Positions 22,453-27,411 of a stretch of 64,000 nucleotides of DNA are shown here, in pieces. The notes below the pieces were generated by a model. It did no database searches and was not told the origin of the DNA. It was given only the letters and a program-made list of their open reading frames with translations. The DNA is taken from NCBI GenBank assembly GCA_000004985.1, contig GG738868.1; one strand, written 5' to 3'. Within the stretch, counting starts at the first letter, position 1. Each line of letters begins with the position of its first letter. This DNA comes from Naegleria gruberi (Eukaryota). A program made the translations under genes and the position numbers.

Positions 22453-23211
22453 TCATTTTGTACAGACAATATTCACATCAGAGCAATTTCTTCCCATTCC
22501 AAAGAGTTTCATCCTCTGTTTCAGACACATCATATCTGTGTATAAAAATGGCTTTCTAACAAGATCTAATCCAAGATTGATTTCCATCTCGAAAGATTGT
22601 TCACATTTCGAACTAATCATTGGTTTGAATATCTTGGATTTGTATTTTTCATTGGTAAATCGATTTCCTAATGCATTTTCCAATAATTTTCCATTTCTTG
22701 TCACTTTGAATTCACCATTTTCATGATCGAGCAAAAATCCAAACACTTCATCTCCCTTCACATCAGCTAAATGCACTTTATTAGCAATGTATGCAGTAAA
22801 TCTCGTTTCCTGATAAACATTTCCAGTATCATAGCGAAATCCAATTGTGTCTTCATCCCATCCAACAATATCTTCTTTTACATGTTCAGTATTCGCTGTA
22901 AATCCAAATCCGAAAAAGAGATTCTTTAATTGTTGTTGTGGCCATAATTTTACTTCATAGTAGGTAAATCTCGTAGTGTCGTATAGTGTGGTTGATTCGG
23001 AAGGAATGGGAAGCAATAATGACTTGTAAGGTTTAATTCGAATGTTACCTATTGATGGAGGAATATCTGAAATGAGATTTGGATCATTGTTTTCCATATG
23101 AATCACATCAAGTGTTTGGATAGGAAGCATATCATCCTCATAATCCAATTCTGTCATTTTTTTCTTGTTAAAAAATTCAAAAGTTGACTTGGTTAAGAAT
23201 GTTGTAATCAT
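22453..23211 (-). CDS. SPRY/B30.2-domain protein.
   Basis: ATG at 23211. The SPRY-type core reads 'GFGFTANTEH...WDEDTIGFRYDTGNVY...VFGFLLDHENGEFKVTRNGK'. Confidence 0.6.
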   Translation of the reverse strand: MITTFLTKSTFEFFNKKKMTELDYEDDMLPIQTLDVIHMENNDPNLISDIPPSIGNIRIKPYKSLLLPIPSESTTLYDTTRFTYYEVKLWPQQQLKNLFFGFGFTANTEHVKEDIVGWDEDTIGFRYDTGNVYQETRFTAYIANKVHLADVKGDEVFGFLLDHENGEFKVTRNGKLLENALGNRFTNEKYKSKIFKPMISSKCEQSFEMEINLGLDLVRKPFLYTDMMCLKQRMKLFGMGRNCSDVNIVCTK

Positions 23212-23321
23212 TATTCAAGATCAATTTTAGAGTTTGCATTGCTTACCACATAGTATTCAAAAAGGACAAATTAGAACATGAAGAAAATACAATCATTCTC
23301 AAATAAAATCCAAAATTTAAT

Positions 23322-25129
23322 TTAGAGTTGACCATTTTCCCACTTGTCTTCAATCAAGCTCTTAACAATGGACCAACCACGGTGACCAATGATTGGATTT
23401 TCCATTTCACTGAATTCATCAGCCAACTTGTTGGCAGCAAGACCAGTTGGAATATTTTGATCTCTAGAAGTTTGCAAAATACGGGAAGCAATAACATAGA
23501 CAGCATTGTCCCAATCTCTACCGAAGTGTTTCAAAATTGCTGGGTCGTTCTTGACATAACCAAAGCATTCATTGGCACAATTGACAATACCCATACGGTT
23601 GTTCAAGTAATCTGGAACATAAATGATACCACGATTCTTAATCATGTGATCATGTTCAACAGGATCCAAAAGTTGATTGTTGGCAGCACCACAGACAATC
23701 TTACAGTTGAGCATTGGAATGGTAGTAGAGTTGATGATACCACCCAAAGCAGCTGGAGCAAAAACGTCACATGGTTCAGCAAAGATGCTCAAATCGTTTG
23801 GAGCAACAACTCTGAATTCAACATTTGGTGCATGCTTGAATTGTTCCTTTCTCATGGCAATCAAGTTCTTGTCGATATCAGTAGCAATAACCTTACCAAC
23901 ATTTCTCTTGACGAGTTCTTCAACAATGAAGCTAGCAACATTACCAGCACCTTGGACGACAACCTTCTTTCCACTCAAATCTCCCATACCGAGGAAATTA
24001 ACAGCAGCTTCCATACCACAGACAGTACCAATGGCAGTGGAGTGAGATGGGTTACCAGAACCACCAATACCTTGTGACAAACAACTGACGAAACGAGAAG
24101 ACTTTGATGAAGAAGAAATTATGATAAGTGTGTGAAAATTGATGATGATGAAATTGTAACGGTAACAAAAATATTTCACATTTGCATTTTGATTGGAAGT
24201 TGAAGGTGTTAATAATAAAGAGAGATAATATACATACATTGTGCATTCTATCACAATCTGGTGTAGTGAGACCAACGTCTTCAGCACCATAGTAGGCACC
24301 CTTCAATGAAGAAAGGAACTTTCCGTATTCACCAAAGATGACATCACGAGTAACATCATTAGCATAAGTAGCACCATCAGTCTTTTGGATGATACCCTTA
24401 CCACCACCTGTTGATTATTGATCCATCAAGTTTTAATAATTATTTTCCAATATTTGTTGTTCATATGATGATAGAATCGATTGTGTGTGAAAATATCGTG
24501 TGTGATTTTTAAAATTATATGAATTGTAAATATCATCAATAATAAATACTAACCCCACCATAAACCAGCAAGAGCATTCTTTCTATTAATTAAATTCAAC
24601 AAGTCCGATATCATCACAAGGAATTAAATTTCACAATCATCATCAATATTATGAAAATTAATTTCATATAAAATCACACAACATACCTAGTCATACCCAA
24701 GCTCAATCTCAAACCATCTCTAACGTAATCTTCCATAGAATTGTACTTCCACAATCTGACACCACCGTGTGCCAAACCTCTGTTTGATTTATGGAGGAAA
24801 GCAGAGAACAAGAGGTTAGACTTTGGACCAACTTGGAAGAAACAAGCTTCATGCTTCAAGAAATCTCTCTTATCCTTTGAAATAAATTCACCCAATTGAG
24901 CAAAAAGTGGATGACTAGTCACAACTTGTTGCTTTTCAGCATCATAAACAACATAACCTCTTTGAATGCCAGCCTTTTGCATTTCTTCTTGGAATTTTTC
25001 AACAGACAAGGATGCAACTCCATTTTGTTGTTGATTCAATTTTTGGGAGAATTGTCTGACGATCATTCCGGCTTGGAAAGTTGTTTGCTTATTACCAGCA
25101 ACAACACGACGGCTCACAGTGTTGAACAT
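23322..25129 (-). CDS. Leu/Phe/Val dehydrogenase-family enzyme (Glu/Leu/Phe/Val DH superfamily, LeuDH-like) with an N-terminal mitochondrial-type presequence. Four exons: ~24687..25129, 24554..24582, ~24238..24407 and 23322..~24101.
   Basis: Real ATG near 25129; the track start at 25180 is TTG. The spliced protein reads '...GLRLSLGMTRKNALAGLWWGGGKGII...DRMHN|SSRFVSCLSQGIGGSGNPSHSTAIG...VVVQGAGNVAS...'. This matches the LeuDH motifs 'RGMTYKNALAGLxLGGGK' and the Rossmann motif 'GxGxVG'. Confidence 0.8.
24554..24582 (-). other. Microexon of 29 nt encoding 'KNALAGLWW(G)', just before the GGGK loop.
   Basis: It is flanked by a 'ttaattaatag' acceptor and a 'gttagtat' donor. Including it is required to restore both the frame and the conserved LeuDH motif. 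Confidence 0.7.
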
Positions 25130-25632
25130 TTTTTTTTCTTCTTTCAAAAACACGCTCAATGCAGAACTCGCCGTTTTCAAAGCCTAATTAAGACTGTTAG
25201 ACAATAAAGGAAGGGAAGGCGCGAAAATGATTTTTTTGATTAAGGCTTCTAATTTGGACTTGATATGAAATTTAACATGCATTGTGTGTGAAATTATTTG
25301 TAATGCATGGCAAGGAATACAAGTATTAGCTTGTTGAAAATAAATCATAAAATTGGGTGGAGTGTATAGGTTGGGGAAAATTTCAGATTGTGTATTGGTC
25401 TATTCATTACAGTACATCAAAGTGAGCTCTTTATAGGAAGTTATCCAACTCCCTATCGTCCTTCCTCATTGAAAAAGCATTCCTTGCTACTGCAATTTCA
25501 GAGTTGTTTGATGGTTCATTCTGTTTGGACAATTTTCCTTTGAACAAAAAAAACCCTTGATATCAACACTAAAACCATTCACCTTCCTTGCAAAGACCAA
25601 TTGTCCTGAAATTTACCTCTCTCTTAAACAAC

Positions 25633-27411
25633 ATGTTGGGCGACAATGAAGAAGAATTGCAAAACTATCAATATTATCTTCATGAAAACTCCGAGAGCTT
25701 CAACCAGACAAAAAAAATGAGAAACGAGACTTTTCTGGAGGCTCATGATGATGAAAATAATTACTCTTCATCAGGGATGAGCAAACATCAGCAGCATCAG
25801 CAGCAACAACAGGAAGTCTCCTCTTCATCATTGAATTCTCGGGAACAATATGGAGATGAAGATAACTTGTATGTCCGAGGAAGTTGGAGGAGTAGAATCA
25901 AGAGTTATTTGGAAAATAGATTTGGAGAATTAACATTCAAAAATTTATCGTTGAGAGGATTGAGATTTTTGGCTGTTTTCTTATTTTCTCAAGTGATATC
26001 TTGTTTATTAACATCGACAGGAATATTTAGTACTTTTTTAACAAACAAATTCAATATTAATTTACCAACATTACAGAATGCGATTAGTTACACGACATTG
26101 TTGGCATTTTACTTTCCTTTATTGCTGGTTCACAAATGGTGTTTTCCAGTTGTGAAGAAAGTAAAGAGAATTAATTTTGCAGCTATTGGAGCTAGGAAAT
26201 CGAGGAAAGCTAGGAAAACTTCAGAGAATAGTCGATTAATATCTGAATCTAGTGAATCATCATTGAGACAGCAAGAAGTATCTTCGCCAACTGAGAGTGG
26301 TATTGCTGCTTCGGAGTCAATGAGTAGTGTGGGAGAAACTGCACTCACTACAGCAGATGTCAATACCACAACTATTACTTCACCAAAACCACTCGTGACA
26401 CATACCTCATTCCAAAAAATTGAGGACGAGGAAGAACAAGAGGAAGAAGAGGGAATCAAGACATGTTTCCAATCAATTTTCAAACGTTTATATATACCTG
26501 AAAGATGGAATATGAAGCCATGGAAATACATCTTCTTTGCTTTTGCTGACGTGGAGGCCAACTTTTTGGTTGTTAAGGCCTATCAGTACACAACCATTAC
26601 TTCTGTCATGCTCTTGGATTGTTTCACAATTCCAAGTGTCATGTTACTGAGCTTTTTATTTTTGAATAGAACTTATAGGTGGACTCACATTGTAGGTGTT
26701 TTGATTTGTTTGACAGGTTTAGGGCTTTTGGTATTGAGCGACTATTTGAGAAGTATTAGTGAGGAACATCATCAAACTTCGGAAAATCCATGGTATTACC
26801 TATTGATGGGCGATGCCTTCTGTATTGTTGGCTCATTTTGCTATGCTATCAGTAATGTAGCTCAAGAATATGCCTTAAAATCAGAGGATCACTTTTCACA
26901 ACTCATGGCTGACCCATCATCCACCGATATCGAACCAACATCACCAACATCCACAACTGCTCCTCCAGAAGTTTCCAAACCAAGACTCAGTGACAATGAT
27001 TGTGCCATTGAATATTTGGGTATGGTAGGATTATTTGGAACTATCATTGCCATCATTCAAACACTCATTTTCGAAAGAGAAGATATCATGAACACAAAAT
27101 GGACACCTCAATCAATGATGTACATGGCTGGATTTGCTGCTTCCATGTTCTTTATCTATACCCTTGTTCCTCACTTGATTAGATGGAGTAGTGCAACCTT
27201 TATGAATCTTTCCTTCCTGACGAGTGATATCTTTGCAGTCATTGCTAGTGTATTCCTCTTTGGTCAATCAGTTTATCCACTCTATTATTTTGCCTATGCC
27301 ATTATTGCCATTGGTTTAGTTTTCTACAATCTCTTACAGGAAGAAGAAAGAAAATCAAAGAGTGTTTGGGCCAAGGGAAAACTGTTACTTGTAAAATGTT
27401 TCAGAAAGTAA
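25633..27411 (+). CDS. SLC35F1/F2-like transporter (drug/metabolite-transporter superfamily) with a long hydrophilic N-terminal extension.
   Basis: Real ATG at 25633. The core 'FADVEANFLVVKAYQYTTITSVMLLDCFTIPSVMLLSFLFL...HIVGVLICLTGLGLLVLSD' matches the SLC35F family, and about ten TM helices are present. Confidence 0.75.
   Translation: MLGDNEEELQNYQYYLHENSESFNQTKKMRNETFLEAHDDENNYSSSGMSKHQQHQQQQQEVSSSSLNSREQYGDEDNLYVRGSWRSRIKSYLENRFGELTFKNLSLRGLRFLAVFLFSQVISCLLTSTGIFSTFLTNKFNINLPTLQNAISYTTLLAFYFPLLLVHKWCFPVVKKVKRINFAAIGARKSRKARKTSENSRLISESSESSLRQQEVSSPTESGIAASESMSSVGETALTTADVNTTTITSPKPLVTHTSFQKIEDEEEQEEEEGIKTCFQSIFKRLYIPERWNMKPWKYIFFAFADVEANFLVVKAYQYTTITSVMLLDCFTIPSVMLLSFLFLNRTYRWTHIVGVLICLTGLGLLVLSDYLRSISEEHHQTSENPWYYLLMGDAFCIVGSFCYAISNVAQEYALKSEDHFSQLMADPSSTDIEPTSPTSTTAPPEVSKPRLSDNDCAIEYLGMVGLFGTIIAIIQTLIFEREDIMNTKWTPQSMMYMAGFAASMFFIYTLVPHLIRWSSATFMNLSFLTSDIFAVIASVFLFGQSVYPLYYFAYAIIAIGLVFYNLLQEEERKSKSVWAKGKLLLVKCFRK

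What the first reader, a model, noticed from the sequence alone, without database searches (positions are those of the whole stretch)
23322..25129. Bacterial-type Leu/Phe/Val dehydrogenase gene with a eukaryotic presequence, three introns and a 29-nt microexon
The encoded enzyme belongs to the LeuDH/PheDH/ValDH branch of the Glu/Leu/Phe/Val dehydrogenase superfamily, which is mostly bacterial. Here the gene has an N-terminal basic, hydroxylated presequence ('MFNTVSRRVVAGNKQTTF...') and is broken by GT-AG introns. One is a 29-nt microexon (24554..24582) that encodes 'KNALAGLWW' inside the most conserved substrate-binding loop ('KNALAGLxLGGGK'). If the gene was acquired horizontally, it is now thoroughly 'eukaryotised'.
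Basis: partly seen in the sequence, partly recalled or inferred. Interest (0 to 1): 0.55.

Follow-up and report, generated by a model that had tools for sequence, protein, structure and literature searches.

The report
Mitochondrial leucine-type dehydrogenase gene of Naegleria
This is an ordinary, already annotated nuclear gene of the amoeba Naegleria gruberi for a mitochondrial leucine-dehydrogenase-like enzyme. Its 29-base mini-exon is real but specific to this species, and the family turns out to occur in many other eukaryotes, so a recent transfer from bacteria is unlikely.

Summary
On the minus strand, four exons (25129-24687, 24582-24554, 24407-24238, 24101-23322) joined across three AT-rich GT-AG introns give a 473-aa ORF. 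It is 100% identical to N. gruberi XP_002677180.1 (NAEGRDRAFT_67581).

The protein belongs to the LeuDH/PheDH/TrpDH branch (PDB LeuDH E=2e-70, against 1e-16 for the best GDH). More exactly, it is in a "long-form" subfamily of about 435 aa that is widespread in bacteria.

The 29-nt exon encodes KNALAGLWW, including the Lys68 equivalent (K149). Skipping it shifts the frame.

The first ~36 residues are eukaryote-specific and free of acidic residues, with a conserved R-x-F|S motif. A published fractionation proteome places the protein in mitochondria (26 peptides, 64.9% coverage).

- **The microexon is not conserved.** N. fowleri and N. lovaniensis lack intron 1.
- **The gene is not a Naegleria oddity.** Homologues occur in Willaertia, Colponema, Diphylleia, Platysulcus, early fungi, spiders, a priapulid and a clam. 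Most of them, though not the two fungal ones, have presequence-like N-termini. One intron position is shared by Naegleria, animals and a fungus.

Deep phylogeny is unresolved. An old eukaryotic gene is at least as likely as lineage-specific transfer. Interest is modest.

The parts
24687..25129 (-). Exon 1 (443 nt), with the start codon at 25129-25127. Encodes aa 1-147 plus two bases of the R148 codon. Contains the presequence and the N-terminal structural unit specific to the long-form subfamily (aa ~40-93).
   Evidence: model; 100% identity to XP_002677180.1; confident structure from about residue 40.
25022..25129 (-). Eukaryote-specific N-terminal extension (aa 1 to ~36), a putative mitochondrial presequence. 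The candidate MPP R-3 site is R25-Q-F27|S28, which would make the cleaved part 25129..25049.
   Evidence: Bacterial homologues start at about aa 37-40. No acidic residue occurs before aa 44. The R-x-F|S motif aligns in Naegleria, Willaertia and Colponema. pLDDT is below 50 here. PSORT II, MultiLoc and TargetP all call it mitochondrial, and it co-fractionates with mitochondria. The cleavage site is inferred, not shown.
24583..24686 (-). Intron 1 (104 nt, phase 2, GTATGT...AATAG). Specific to N. gruberi among the genomes examined; its presence is what creates the microexon.
   Evidence: It is inserted at ACTAG|AAAG. N. fowleri and N. lovaniensis read through this site without interruption.
24554..24582 (-). 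29-nt microexon: third base of R148, then K149 NALAGLWW157, then first base of G158. K149 is equivalent to the substrate-carboxylate-binding Lys68 of LeuDH.
   Evidence: K149 and W157 are invariant, and N150-W156 are at least 90% conserved, across 120 homologues. Skipping the exon causes a frameshift.
24408..24553 (-). Intron 2 (146 nt, phase 1 in G158, GTTAGT...AACAG). Shared with N. fowleri and N. lovaniensis.
24238..24407 (-). Exon 3 (170 nt, aa 158-214). Contains GGGK161 (catalytic Lys80 equivalent; codon 24399-24397) and A199-E200-D201 (Asp115 equivalent).
24102..24237 (-). Intron 3 (136 nt, phase 0 after N214, GTATGT...CAAAG). Shared with N. fowleri and N. lovaniensis.
23322..24101 (-). 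Exon 4 (780 nt including the TAA stop at 23324-23322; aa 215-473). Contains the Rossmann NAD-binding domain (G265-A-G267-N-V-A270, D288), the GAANNQL and NRMGIVNC motifs, and the C-terminal helices.

Best explanation
This is the nuclear gene NAEGRDRAFT_67581 of Naegleria gruberi. It encodes a mitochondrial, probably NAD+-dependent, L-amino-acid dehydrogenase of the leucine-dehydrogenase type, in a 'long-form' subfamily of about 435 aa.

**How it works (shown and inferred).**
- The pre-mRNA must be spliced at three short AT-rich GT-AG introns, constitutively including a 29-nt internal exon. That the gene model requires this is shown.
- The ~52-kDa precursor carries a ~27-36-residue basic, hydroxylated presequence that directs import into mitochondria. 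Localisation is shown by published fractionation proteomics. Cleavage after R25-Q-F27 is inferred.
- In the matrix the mature enzyme oxidatively deaminates a branched-chain or other hydrophobic L-amino acid to its 2-oxo acid, giving NADH and NH4+. It would use K161 and D201 for catalysis and K149 to bind the carboxylate. This is inferred from conserved residues and fold.
- The product would enter the mitochondrial branched-chain 2-oxo-acid dehydrogenase pathway, in parallel with the mitochondrial branched-chain aminotransferase listed in the same proteome.

**Evolution.**
- The gene is old in Heterolobosea. It belongs to a subfamily that is mainly bacterial but also sits in many scattered eukaryotic lineages.
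- It has gained and lost introns since. The microexon arose because one extra intron is present in N. gruberi, 29 nt upstream of an older, genus-wide intron. This is either a gain at an AG|A proto-splice site or a loss in the fowleri/lovaniensis lineage.
For: - **Gene model and annotation.** Identical to the RefSeq protein.
- **Family.** Pfam ELFV_dehydrog_N and ELFV_dehydrog pass their thresholds. LeuDH 6acf scores E=2.3e-70, against 1.3e-16 for the best GDH. Foldseek with the pLDDT-92 model ranks LeuDH first (TM 0.84-0.89 on the target), then PheDH, TrpDH, then GDH.
- **Catalytic residues.** K149, K161, D201, G122-G123, G265/G267 and N355-N356 are invariant in 120 homologues.
- **Presequence.** Eukaryote-specific, free of acidic residues, with an aligned R-x-F|S motif.
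[quoted passage not shown] Scores are TargetP mito 83, MultiLoc 96, PSORT II 74 (PMC8134430 Supplementary Data 2). A branched-chain aminotransferase is in the same list.
- **Genuine chromosomal gene.** 427-kb scaffold. The divergent SLC35F neighbour is conserved in N. gruberi, N. lovaniensis and N. fowleri.
- **Intron history.**
- **Link to branched-chain amino acids.** In Acidobacteriota the long-form domain is fused to a divergent valine-tRNA-ligase-like domain.
Against: - No enzyme assay exists for any long-form member that I could find, so substrate and cofactor are inferred.
- The residue equivalent to LeuDH Leu40, which lines the side-chain pocket, is His121 in Naegleria. It is Gln in environmental relatives and Ala in most bacteria. 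Val291 and Val294 are Ile386 and Cys389. Specificity may therefore differ from classical LeuDH.
- I could not inspect transcript reads or individual peptides. The splice junctions rest on the annotated model, the reading frame, invariant residues and orthologue comparison.
- The fractionation proteome is a co-purification assignment, not a localisation experiment on this protein.
- The direction of the intron-1 event (gain or loss) is undetermined.
Confidence: 0.8

Rival explanations
1. Lineage-specific horizontal transfer: a heterolobosean ancestor took the gene from a bacterium of the Myxococcota (Nannocystaceae-like). It later gained a presequence and introns, independently of the other eukaryotes that carry the family.
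For: - The best named hits are Enhygromyxa and Plesiocystis at 51-52% identity. [quoted passage not shown]
- The subfamily is overwhelmingly bacterial, and its eukaryotic distribution is very patchy.
- NJ trees do not recover all eukaryotes as one clade: bootstrap is 0-16%, and fungi and Diphylleia fall elsewhere.
- Willaertia and environmental relatives have few or no introns.
Against: - The heterolobosean clade groups first with two other sequences. One sits on a contig with eukaryotic features; the other comes only from a eukaryotic protein collection. Support is 72-98%.
- In two of three NJ analyses it then falls in a loose eukaryote cluster with Colponema, Platysulcus and Metazoa, not inside Myxococcota.
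- Identity to Colponema, Diphylleia and Platysulcus (49-50%) equals identity to the best bacteria.
- A phase-0 intron at NRM|G is shared exactly by N. fowleri/lovaniensis, a clam, a spider and Syncephalis.
- The R-x-F|S presequence motif aligns between Heterolobosea and Colponema.
Confidence: 0.3
2. The 29-nt exon is an annotation artefact. The real transcript would use other splice sites or retain or skip sequence here.
For: I could not examine transcript-level data. N. fowleri and N. lovaniensis have no intron 1. A scan of metagenome contigs for the spliced junction found nothing.
Against: - Both flanking introns contain stop codons in the exon frames, and skipping the exon shifts the frame.
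- Only the proposed junctions restore MTR-KNALAGLWW-GGGK, which matches the orthologues residue for residue and contains subfamily-invariant K149, W157, G158-G160 and K161.
- The spliced N. gruberi sequence ATGACTAG|AAAGAATGC equals the uninterrupted N. fowleri genomic sequence.
- The protein is abundant in proteomics at 64.9% coverage.
Confidence: 0.03
3. The enzyme is not a leucine or branched-chain dehydrogenase. It would be a long-form ELFV enzyme with a different specificity, for example aromatic, sulphur-containing or polar amino acids.
For: - The Leu40-equivalent pocket residue is His in Naegleria and varies across the subfamily (H, Q, A, C, V).
- The subfamily carries a distinctive WW in place of LeuDH 'NL' in the loop, and an extra N-terminal unit.
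- NCBIfam has no equivalog for it. The best hit is the TrpDH ScyB model at 214 bits, against a cutoff of 600.
- No long-form structure is solved.
Against: - The closest solved relatives by sequence and by fold are all LeuDHs.
- The Ala113 equivalent is kept, and Val291/Val294 are replaced by the similarly hydrophobic Ile and Cys.
- Bacterial fusions to a ValRS-like domain point to branched-chain amino acids.
Confidence: 0.25
4. Bacterial contamination or a recent unexpressed insertion in the assembly.
For: High similarity to bacterial proteins.
Against: - Spliceosomal introns are present, and GC content and codon usage match the surrounding 33-35% GC genome.
- The scaffold is 427 kb.
- Synteny with the SLC35F neighbour holds in three Naegleria genomes.
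- The protein is detected by MS.
Confidence: 0.01

Closest known systems
Bacterial leucine dehydrogenase, EC 1.4.1.9 (Geobacillus stearothermophilus 6ACF/6ACH, Lysinibacillus sphaericus 1LEH)
   Same: Same two-domain ELFV fold (Foldseek TM 0.84-0.89 on the target). Identity is 33-38% in the structural alignments; sequence search gives E=2e-70. The Lys68, Lys80, Asp115, Gly41-Gly42 and Ala113 equivalents and the Rossmann GxGxxA with an acidic residue after beta-2 are all present.
   Different: - About 70 residues longer as a mature protein. It has an extra, confidently modelled N-terminal helix/beta unit (aa 40-93) and several small insertions.
- The loop reads GLWWGGGK instead of GLNLGGGK.
- Pocket residue changes are Leu40 to His, Val291 to Ile and Val294 to Cys.
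- It carries a mitochondrial presequence and is interrupted by introns.
- Its activity is untested.
Long-form bacterial 'Glu/Leu/Phe/Val dehydrogenase' proteins (for example Plesiocystis pacifica 'Bcd', Enhygromyxa salina 'leucine dehydrogenase', and many Ignavibacteriales, Bacteroidota, Acidobacteriota and Calditrichota MAGs)
   Same: Collinear over residues ~37-470 at 44-52% identity. Same WW loop, same N-terminal unit and same invariant residues.
   Different: The bacterial proteins have no N-terminal extension; acidic residues appear from position 2-6. They have no introns. Most have Ala, not His, at the Leu40-equivalent position. Some are fused to a ValRS-like domain. I found none that is characterised biochemically.
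Orthologues in N. fowleri (XP_044566188.1), N. lovaniensis (XP_044551869.1) and Willaertia magna (KAL9644296.1)
   Same: N. lovaniensis is 81% identical and Willaertia 70%; N. fowleri falls in the same 90%-identity cluster as N. lovaniensis. They share the presequence style with R-x-F|S. Within Naegleria they share the SLC35F neighbour and introns 2 and 3.
   Different: None has a microexon, because intron 1 is absent. N. fowleri and N. lovaniensis have two further introns (phase 1 near aa 257; phase 0 at NRM|G). Willaertia has one 57-nt intron at a different place.
Eukaryotic mitochondrial glutamate dehydrogenase (GLUD1-type) and other GDHs
   Same: Same superfamily, the same catalytic lysine chemistry and mitochondrial location.
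   Different: Only distant similarity: E=1e-16 to plant GDH and 1e-4 to human GLUD1. This protein lacks the GDH antenna and has no Lys at the GDH gamma-carboxylate-binding position. The refutation test 'falls inside an ordinary eukaryotic GDH clade' is not met.

Membership tests
ELFV (Glu/Leu/Phe/Val) amino-acid dehydrogenase superfamily | Both Pfam domains (PF02812 dimerisation domain, PF00208 NAD(P)-binding domain) above their gathering thresholds | tested here: met
   PF00208 scores 57.1 bits (cutoff 23.4). PF02812 scores 39.9 bits (cutoff 25.3).
ELFV (Glu/Leu/Phe/Val) amino-acid dehydrogenase superfamily | Catalytic Lys in GGGK, carboxylate-binding Lys 12 residues upstream, catalytic Asp, and a Rossmann glycine motif | tested here: met
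   K161, K149, D201 and G265-x-G267-x-x-A270 are present and invariant or nearly invariant in 120 homologues.
LeuDH/PheDH/ValDH/TrpDH branch (as opposed to GDH) | Closer in sequence and fold to LeuDH, PheDH and TrpDH than to any GDH | tested here: met
   By sequence: LeuDH 2e-70, TrpDH 1e-46, PheDH 1e-36, best GDH 1e-16. The Foldseek ranking gives the same order.
Leucine dehydrogenase proper (EC 1.4.1.9) | Hydrophobic side-chain pocket of Leu40, Ala113, Val291 and Val294 (L. sphaericus numbering, from established knowledge of 1LEH) | tested here: inconclusive
   Ala113 is kept as A199. Leu40 becomes H121, Val291 becomes I386 and Val294 becomes C389 (alignment; variation).
Leucine dehydrogenase proper (EC 1.4.1.9) | NAD+-dependent oxidative deamination of L-Leu, L-Ile and L-Val | not testable with these tools
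   I found no biochemical data for any long-form member.
Tryptophan dehydrogenase ScyB (NCBIfam NF035922) | Score above the equivalog cutoff | tested here: not met
   214.5 bits against a cutoff of 600.
Nuclear-encoded mitochondrial matrix protein with a cleavable presequence | N-terminal extension relative to bacterial homologues that is basic, hydroxylated and free of acidic residues, with an R-2/R-3 processing motif | tested here: met
   The extension is about 36 aa. The first 35 residues have K+R=5, D+E=0 and S+T=5. The motif R25-Q-F|S28 aligns with RCF|S, RNF|S and RSF|S in relatives.
Nuclear-encoded mitochondrial matrix protein with a cleavable presequence | Experimental association with mitochondria | tested here: met
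   Listed in Sheet 1 (putative mitochondrial proteome) of Supplementary Data 2 of PMC8134430, with 26 peptides and 64.9% coverage. TargetP, MultiLoc and PSORT II all call it mitochondrial. This is co-fractionation evidence; the cleavage site was not determined.
Microexon (internal exon of 30 nt or less) | Internal coding exon of 30 nt or less, bounded by canonical splice sites and required for the reading frame | tested here: met
   29 nt, with AG|...|GT flanks. Skipping it shifts the frame. It is present in the RefSeq model.
Microexon (internal exon of 30 nt or less) | Direct transcript evidence for both junctions | not testable with these tools
A scan of metagenome contigs for the spliced junction found nothing.
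Recent bacterium-to-Naegleria horizontal transfer | Absent from other eukaryotes, and nested within one bacterial clade with support | tested here: not met
   The family is present in at least eight other eukaryotic lineages. The heterolobosean clade is not nested in Myxococcota in NJ trees, and the backbone is unresolved. An ancient transfer into eukaryotes remains possible.

The most novel reading that the evidence does not exclude
The long-form LeuDH-like enzyme could be an overlooked, ancestral (LECA-age or near) mitochondrial enzyme. It would have been kept only in scattered lineages: Heterolobosea, colponemids, Diphylleia, Platysulcus, Blastocladiomycota, Zoopagomycota, spiders, priapulids and bivalves. 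It would have been lost from all the standard model organisms. The phase-0 intron at NRM|G, shared by Naegleria, animals and Syncephalis, would then be a relic of the ancestral eukaryotic gene. The enzyme would give these organisms a transaminase-independent, NADH-yielding entry into branched-chain amino-acid catabolism.
Probability: 0.35. Interest if true: 0.5.

Novelty: new member of a known kind. Interest (0 to 1): 0.3.

Why it matters
For the window itself, little. The gene, its microexon and its mitochondrial location are already in public annotation and in a proteomics supplement, and the chemistry is textbook ELFV dehydrogenase.

What may be worth a short follow-up is the family context, which I did not find discussed in any paper:

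- There is a distinct long-form LeuDH-like subfamily with no characterised member and no solved structure.
- It is common in bacteria and is encoded by intron-containing nuclear genes in several animals, early fungi and protists from four or five supergroups.
- If these eukaryotic genes are monophyletic, this is a lost-in-model-organisms mitochondrial enzyme of amino-acid catabolism.
- If they are not, it is a striking case of repeated transfer of one gene followed by convergent acquisition of presequences.

The locus is also a clean small example of how a microexon arises. A second intron sits 29 nt from an older one, in a stretch where five different intron positions occur within 11 codons across eukaryotes.

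Tried and rejected
- **Bacterial contamination.** Rejected on the introns, base composition, the 427-kb scaffold, synteny and MS detection.
- **Ordinary eukaryotic GDH.** Rejected.
- **TrpDH ScyB equivalog.** Below the cutoff.
- **Literature.** No paper pairs Naegleria with leucine dehydrogenase, names this locus, or uses the terms 'leucine/phenylalanine/valine dehydrogenase-like'. One search term was rejected for syntax. The only hit is the supplementary proteome table.
- **Spliced transcripts in metagenome or metatranscriptome contigs.** A degenerate junction pattern gave 0 hits.
- **Conserved bacterial gene neighbourhood as a clue to function.** The 1-kb flanks of 12 loci show no common neighbour, and high-GC flanks give spurious ORFs.
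- **Introner or repeat origin of the three introns.** No significant similarity elsewhere in the window.
- **Gene structures not retrieved.** The N. gruberi paralogue and the Priapulus and Ruditapes X2 isoforms are not on record under those exact sequences.
- **Deep phylogeny.** Only neighbour-joining with three distance corrections and bootstraps was possible. It resolves shallow clades, but all-eukaryote groupings get 0-18% support. I therefore make no claim about single versus multiple origins.
- **Near-coincident introns.** The Willaertia intron lies one codon from an animal intron, and Naegleria intron 2 lies 5 nt from an animal intron. I did not count these as shared.
Full report
**1. 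The observation**

The feature lies on the minus strand. Reading the reverse complement of 23250-25250 in three frames shows the coding segments changing frame at three AT-rich gaps.

Joining 25129..24687, 24582..24554, 24407..24238 and 24101..23322 gives a 1422-nt CDS, 473 aa plus TAA, with no internal stop. All three introns are GT-AG:
- Intron 1: 104 nt, GTATGT...AATAG.
- Intron 2: 146 nt, GTTAGT...AACAG.
- Intron 3: 136 nt, GTATGT...CAAAG.

Intron GC is 0.23-0.26, against 0.39-0.45 for the exons. The ATG at 25129 is the first in-frame ATG after an upstream stop. Omitting the 29-nt exon shifts the frame and produces a stop within a few codons.

The translation is 100% identical over its full length to 'predicted protein [Naegleria gruberi]' XP_002677180.1 / EFC44436.1 / NAEGRDRAFT_67581 / D2VFC8, on a 427,589-bp scaffold. 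The window is therefore N. gruberi nuclear DNA, and the public gene model already contains the microexon.

**2. What the protein is**

Pfam finds ELFV_dehydrog_N and ELFV_dehydrog above their thresholds.

| Solved structure | Sequence E-value |
|---|---|
| Leucine dehydrogenases (best, 6acf) | 2.3e-70 |
| Tryptophan dehydrogenase | 1e-46 |
| Phenylalanine dehydrogenase | 1e-36 |
| Best glutamate dehydrogenase | 1.3e-16 |
| Human GLUD1 | about 1e-4 |

An AlphaFold2 model built on 120 homologues has mean pLDDT 92 and pTM 0.87. Foldseek against the PDB ranks LeuDH first (TM 0.84-0.89 on the target), then PheDH, TrpDH and only then GDHs. The 'ordinary eukaryotic GDH' refutation is not met.

In the alignment to G. 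stearothermophilus LeuDH, the loop MTYK68NAAAGLNLGGGK80 corresponds to MTR-K149NALAGLWWGGGK161:
- The microexon encodes K149 to W157, plus one base of each flanking codon. It therefore carries the carboxylate-binding lysine.
- The catalytic lysine (K161) is in exon 3.
- K149, K161, D201 (Asp115 equivalent), G122-G123, G265/G267 and N355-N356 are invariant in 120 homologues.

The enzyme should be active. The side-chain pocket is only partly LeuDH-like: Ala113 is kept, but Leu40 is His121, Val291 is Ile386 and Val294 is Cys389. I therefore call it leucine-type and leave the exact substrate open.

**3. A distinct long-form subfamily**

The nearest bacterial proteins are 430-445 aa rather than about 365 aa. 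They align with the Naegleria protein from residue ~37-40 to the C-terminus at 44-52% identity. They share two features with it:
- The 'WW' in the loop.
- An extra N-terminal helix/strand unit, aa 40-93 in the model, that short LeuDHs lack.

They come from Nannocystaceae, Polyangiaceae, Ignavibacteriales, Bacteroidota, Calditrichota, Acidobacteriota, Gemmatimonadota and others. NCBIfam has no equivalog model for the subfamily, and no structure of it is solved.

In some bacterial proteins (the one with a source name is from Acidobacteriota) the domain is fused to a divergent class-I tRNA-ligase domain. That domain best matches valine-tRNA ligase models, far below their cutoffs. This is a weak pointer to branched-chain amino acids. 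One-kilobase flanks of twelve bacterial loci show no conserved neighbour.

**4. The presequence and localisation**

Residues 1 to ~36 have no counterpart in bacterial homologues. In the first 35 residues there are five Lys/Arg and five Ser/Thr, and there is no Asp or Glu before position 44. Bacterial homologues have acidic residues from position 2-6. This stretch is modelled with low confidence.

An R-x-F|S motif aligns across relatives, about 10-15 residues before homology with bacteria begins:
- R25-Q-F|S28 in N. gruberi.
- RCF|S in N. fowleri and N. lovaniensis.
- RNF|S in Willaertia.
- RSF|S in Colponema.

This fits the classical R-3 mitochondrial processing motif. That reading rests on established knowledge; the cleavage itself is inferred.

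There is also independent experimental evidence. Horvathova et al. 2021 (PMC8134430) fractionated N. gruberi and defined 946 putative mitochondrial proteins by co-fractionation with 376 markers. XP_002677180.1 is in that list:
- 26 unique peptides and 64.9% sequence coverage.
- PSORT II mitochondrial 74, MultiLoc 96, TargetP 83.
- Best BLAST hit 'Leucine dehydrogenase [Enhygromyxa salina]'.

A mitochondrial branched-chain aminotransferase and a second ELFV paralogue are in the same list.

**5. History of the microexon**

I mapped exact exon structures of the orthologues by matching the annotated proteins to genomic DNA.

| Species | Intron structure |
|---|---|
| N. gruberi | Introns 1, 2 and 3 |
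| N. lovaniensis, N. fowleri | Introns 2 and 3 at the same codon and phase; no intron 1; two further introns (phase 1 near aa 257; phase 0 between M384 and G385 in N. gruberi numbering) |
| Willaertia magna | One 57-nt intron elsewhere (phase 0 after aa 125) |
| Environmental relative (130-kb contig with eukaryotic features) | None |

In N. lovaniensis and N. fowleri the first exon runs straight through the KNALAGLWW codons. At the DNA level, N. fowleri reads ATGACTAGAAAGAATGC without interruption. That is exactly the spliced N. gruberi sequence, so intron 1 sits at ACTAG|AAAG, a proto-splice-like AG|A site.

The microexon is therefore a by-product of one extra intron 29 nt upstream of an older, genus-wide intron. 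It was either gained in the N. gruberi lineage or lost in the fowleri/lovaniensis lineage; the outgroups cannot decide. The introns show no repeat or introner similarity within the window.

Synteny shows stable chromosomal residence. The divergently transcribed neighbour is an SLC35F/EamA transporter in N. gruberi (25588..27411, plus strand), N. lovaniensis and N. fowleri.

**6. Is it a horizontal acquisition?**

The subfamily is mainly bacterial, but it is not confined to Naegleria among eukaryotes. Cluster look-ups identify members in the following:
- Colponema vietnamica, Diphylleia rotans and Platysulcus tardus.
- The fungi Allomyces spp. and Syncephalis plumigaleata.
- The spiders Araneus and Larinioides, Priapulus caudatus and the clam Ruditapes philippinarum.

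An unidentified environmental homologue sits on a contig with a RING-finger gene and a split 5-FTHF cyclo-ligase gene, which points to a eukaryote. The protist and animal proteins have basic N-termini with few or no acidic residues. The two fungal proteins do not: their first Asp/Glu is at position 15, and Allomyces has only one Lys/Arg in its first 35 residues.

The animal genes are real. Ruditapes has 11 exons over 18.4 kb and Araneus has 10 exons over 20.5 kb. Syncephalis has 13 exons and Allomyces has 5.

Neighbour-joining trees with three distance corrections give the following:

| Grouping | Bootstrap |
|---|---|
| Naegleria + Willaertia | 100% |
| Heterolobosean-like clade including environmental sequences | 88-100% |
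| That clade plus two further sequences (one on the eukaryote-like contig, one from EukProt) | 72-98% |
| Metazoan clade | 94-97% |
| Every deeper grouping, including any all-eukaryote grouping | 0-18% |

In two of the three analyses the heterolobosean clade falls in a loose cluster with Colponema, Platysulcus and Metazoa, next to Diphylleia and Myxococcota. No analysis nests it within Nannocystaceae.

One rare character bears on the question. The phase-0 intron between Met and Gly of the invariant NRM|GIV motif is present at exactly the same place in N. lovaniensis, N. fowleri, Ruditapes, Araneus and Syncephalis. I verified this at the DNA level. It is also the only position shared between the animal and fungal genes.
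- Under uniform insertion, the chance that any of six heterolobosean positions hits any of 24 opisthokont positions is about 0.11.
- The chance of hitting that one animal-fungus position is about 0.005.
- That rises to 0.02-0.05 if only 10-20% of sites can accept an intron.

This is suggestive, not proof. My reading is that a recent or Naegleria-specific transfer is not supported. The gene is at least as old as the Naegleria-Willaertia ancestor. A single old eukaryotic origin with many losses is at least as likely as several independent transfers. Which bacterium, if any, was the donor is not determined.

**7. Comparison with what is known, and novelty**

The enzyme works like a bacterial LeuDH and belongs to the same branch. 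Its subfamily (long form, WW loop, extra N-terminal unit) has no characterised member that I could find, and one defining pocket residue differs.

The gene, its exon structure and its mitochondrial association are already public. No paper in the searchable library discusses it.

I rate it a new member of a known kind, with modest interest. The family-level picture, a LeuDH-like mitochondrial enzyme in animals, early fungi and diverse protists, is the part that might repay a proper phylogenetic study.

**8. Limits**

- No transcript reads or individual peptides could be inspected.
- No maximum-likelihood phylogeny or topology test could be run.
- Substrate, cofactor and presequence cleavage site are inferred.
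- Intron positions of the N. gruberi paralogue could not be retrieved.

Noticed in passing
Not in the window (N. gruberi XP_002679755.1 / NAEGRDRAFT_65087 = P0180): N. gruberi has a second long-form ELFV paralogue, 477 aa and 33% identical. It keeps both loop lysines but has lost many subfamily-invariant residues: D201 to G, GG-V-R to GN-V-D, the Rossmann motif QGAGNVA to QGFNKET, GAANNQ to GVSQSQ, and NRMGIV. It is also in the mitochondrial proteome (23 peptides). It is probably a non-catalytic pseudoenzyme, and might be a regulatory partner as in the Thermus GdhA/GdhB hetero-hexamer.
   Followed up: partly
L001 4673/4840; L004 4733/4973; L088 15022/17332; L089 16149/18083; L091 2260/2323. 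The equivalent site in the window is between codons M384 and G385 (about 23592/23591), where there is no intron.: A phase-0 intron at exactly the same site (NRM|GIV) is present in N. lovaniensis, N. fowleri, the clam Ruditapes, the spider Araneus and the fungus Syncephalis, but not in N. gruberi. It is the only position shared between the animal and fungal genes. It is either an ancient intron or a parallel insertion.
   Followed up: yes
Window 24554-24700 and the equivalent codons in L088, L089, L090 and L091: The 11 codons around MTRKNALAGLWWG carry five different intron positions across eukaryotes: N. gruberi phase 2 in R148, Syncephalis phase 0 after K149, Allomyces phase 1, animals phase 2 in the W156 equivalent, and Naegleria phase 1 in G158. 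This looks like a local hot spot of intron insertion or sliding, in the most conserved part of the protein.
   Followed up: partly
P0147, P0150, P0151, P0156, P0165 (bacterial; P0147 is named as Acidobacteriota): Proteins of 730-1220 aa fuse an N-terminal long-form ELFV dehydrogenase to a divergent class-I tRNA-ligase domain. That domain is most similar to valine-tRNA ligase (216 bits against a cutoff of 704). I have not seen this architecture described.
   Followed up: partly
P0144/P0285 (spiders), P0152 (Priapulus), P0163/P0290 (Ruditapes); loci L088, L089: Invertebrate animals carry multi-exon genes of this 'bacterial' LeuDH-like subfamily. The two structures mapped have 10-11 exons over 18-20 kb. 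The proteins have long N-terminal extensions and are annotated only as Phe/Leu/Val-dehydrogenase-like.
   Followed up: partly
Window 25588-27411 (+): The divergently oriented neighbour is an SLC35F/EamA-type transporter (Pfam SLC35F E=1.6e-81). The same head-to-head arrangement with the dehydrogenase gene is kept in N. lovaniensis and N. fowleri. The intergenic region is about 460 bp.
   Followed up: yes
L002 3376-3432 (Willaertia) compared with L088/L089: Willaertia's single 57-nt phase-0 intron (IPH|GGVR) lies exactly one codon downstream of a phase-0 intron shared by the clam and the spider (GQG|VGG, QAH|GG region). I did not count it as shared; it could reflect intron sliding.
   Followed up: no
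Window protein aa 40-93 (about 25012-24851, minus strand): The long-form subfamily has a confidently modelled extra N-terminal unit (helix 43-52, strands 57-63 and 68-71, helix 74-85) that short LeuDH and PheDH lack. Foldseek alignments to hexameric GDHs are longer (408-440 columns) than those to LeuDH, so this unit may correspond to the GDH N-terminal region. I did not examine this residue by residue.
   Followed up: no
Window 22453-23211 (-): The gene downstream of the dehydrogenase encodes a 252-aa protein with a weak SPRY domain match (26.5 bits, cutoff 26.3). It appears unrelated to the finding.
   Followed up: no
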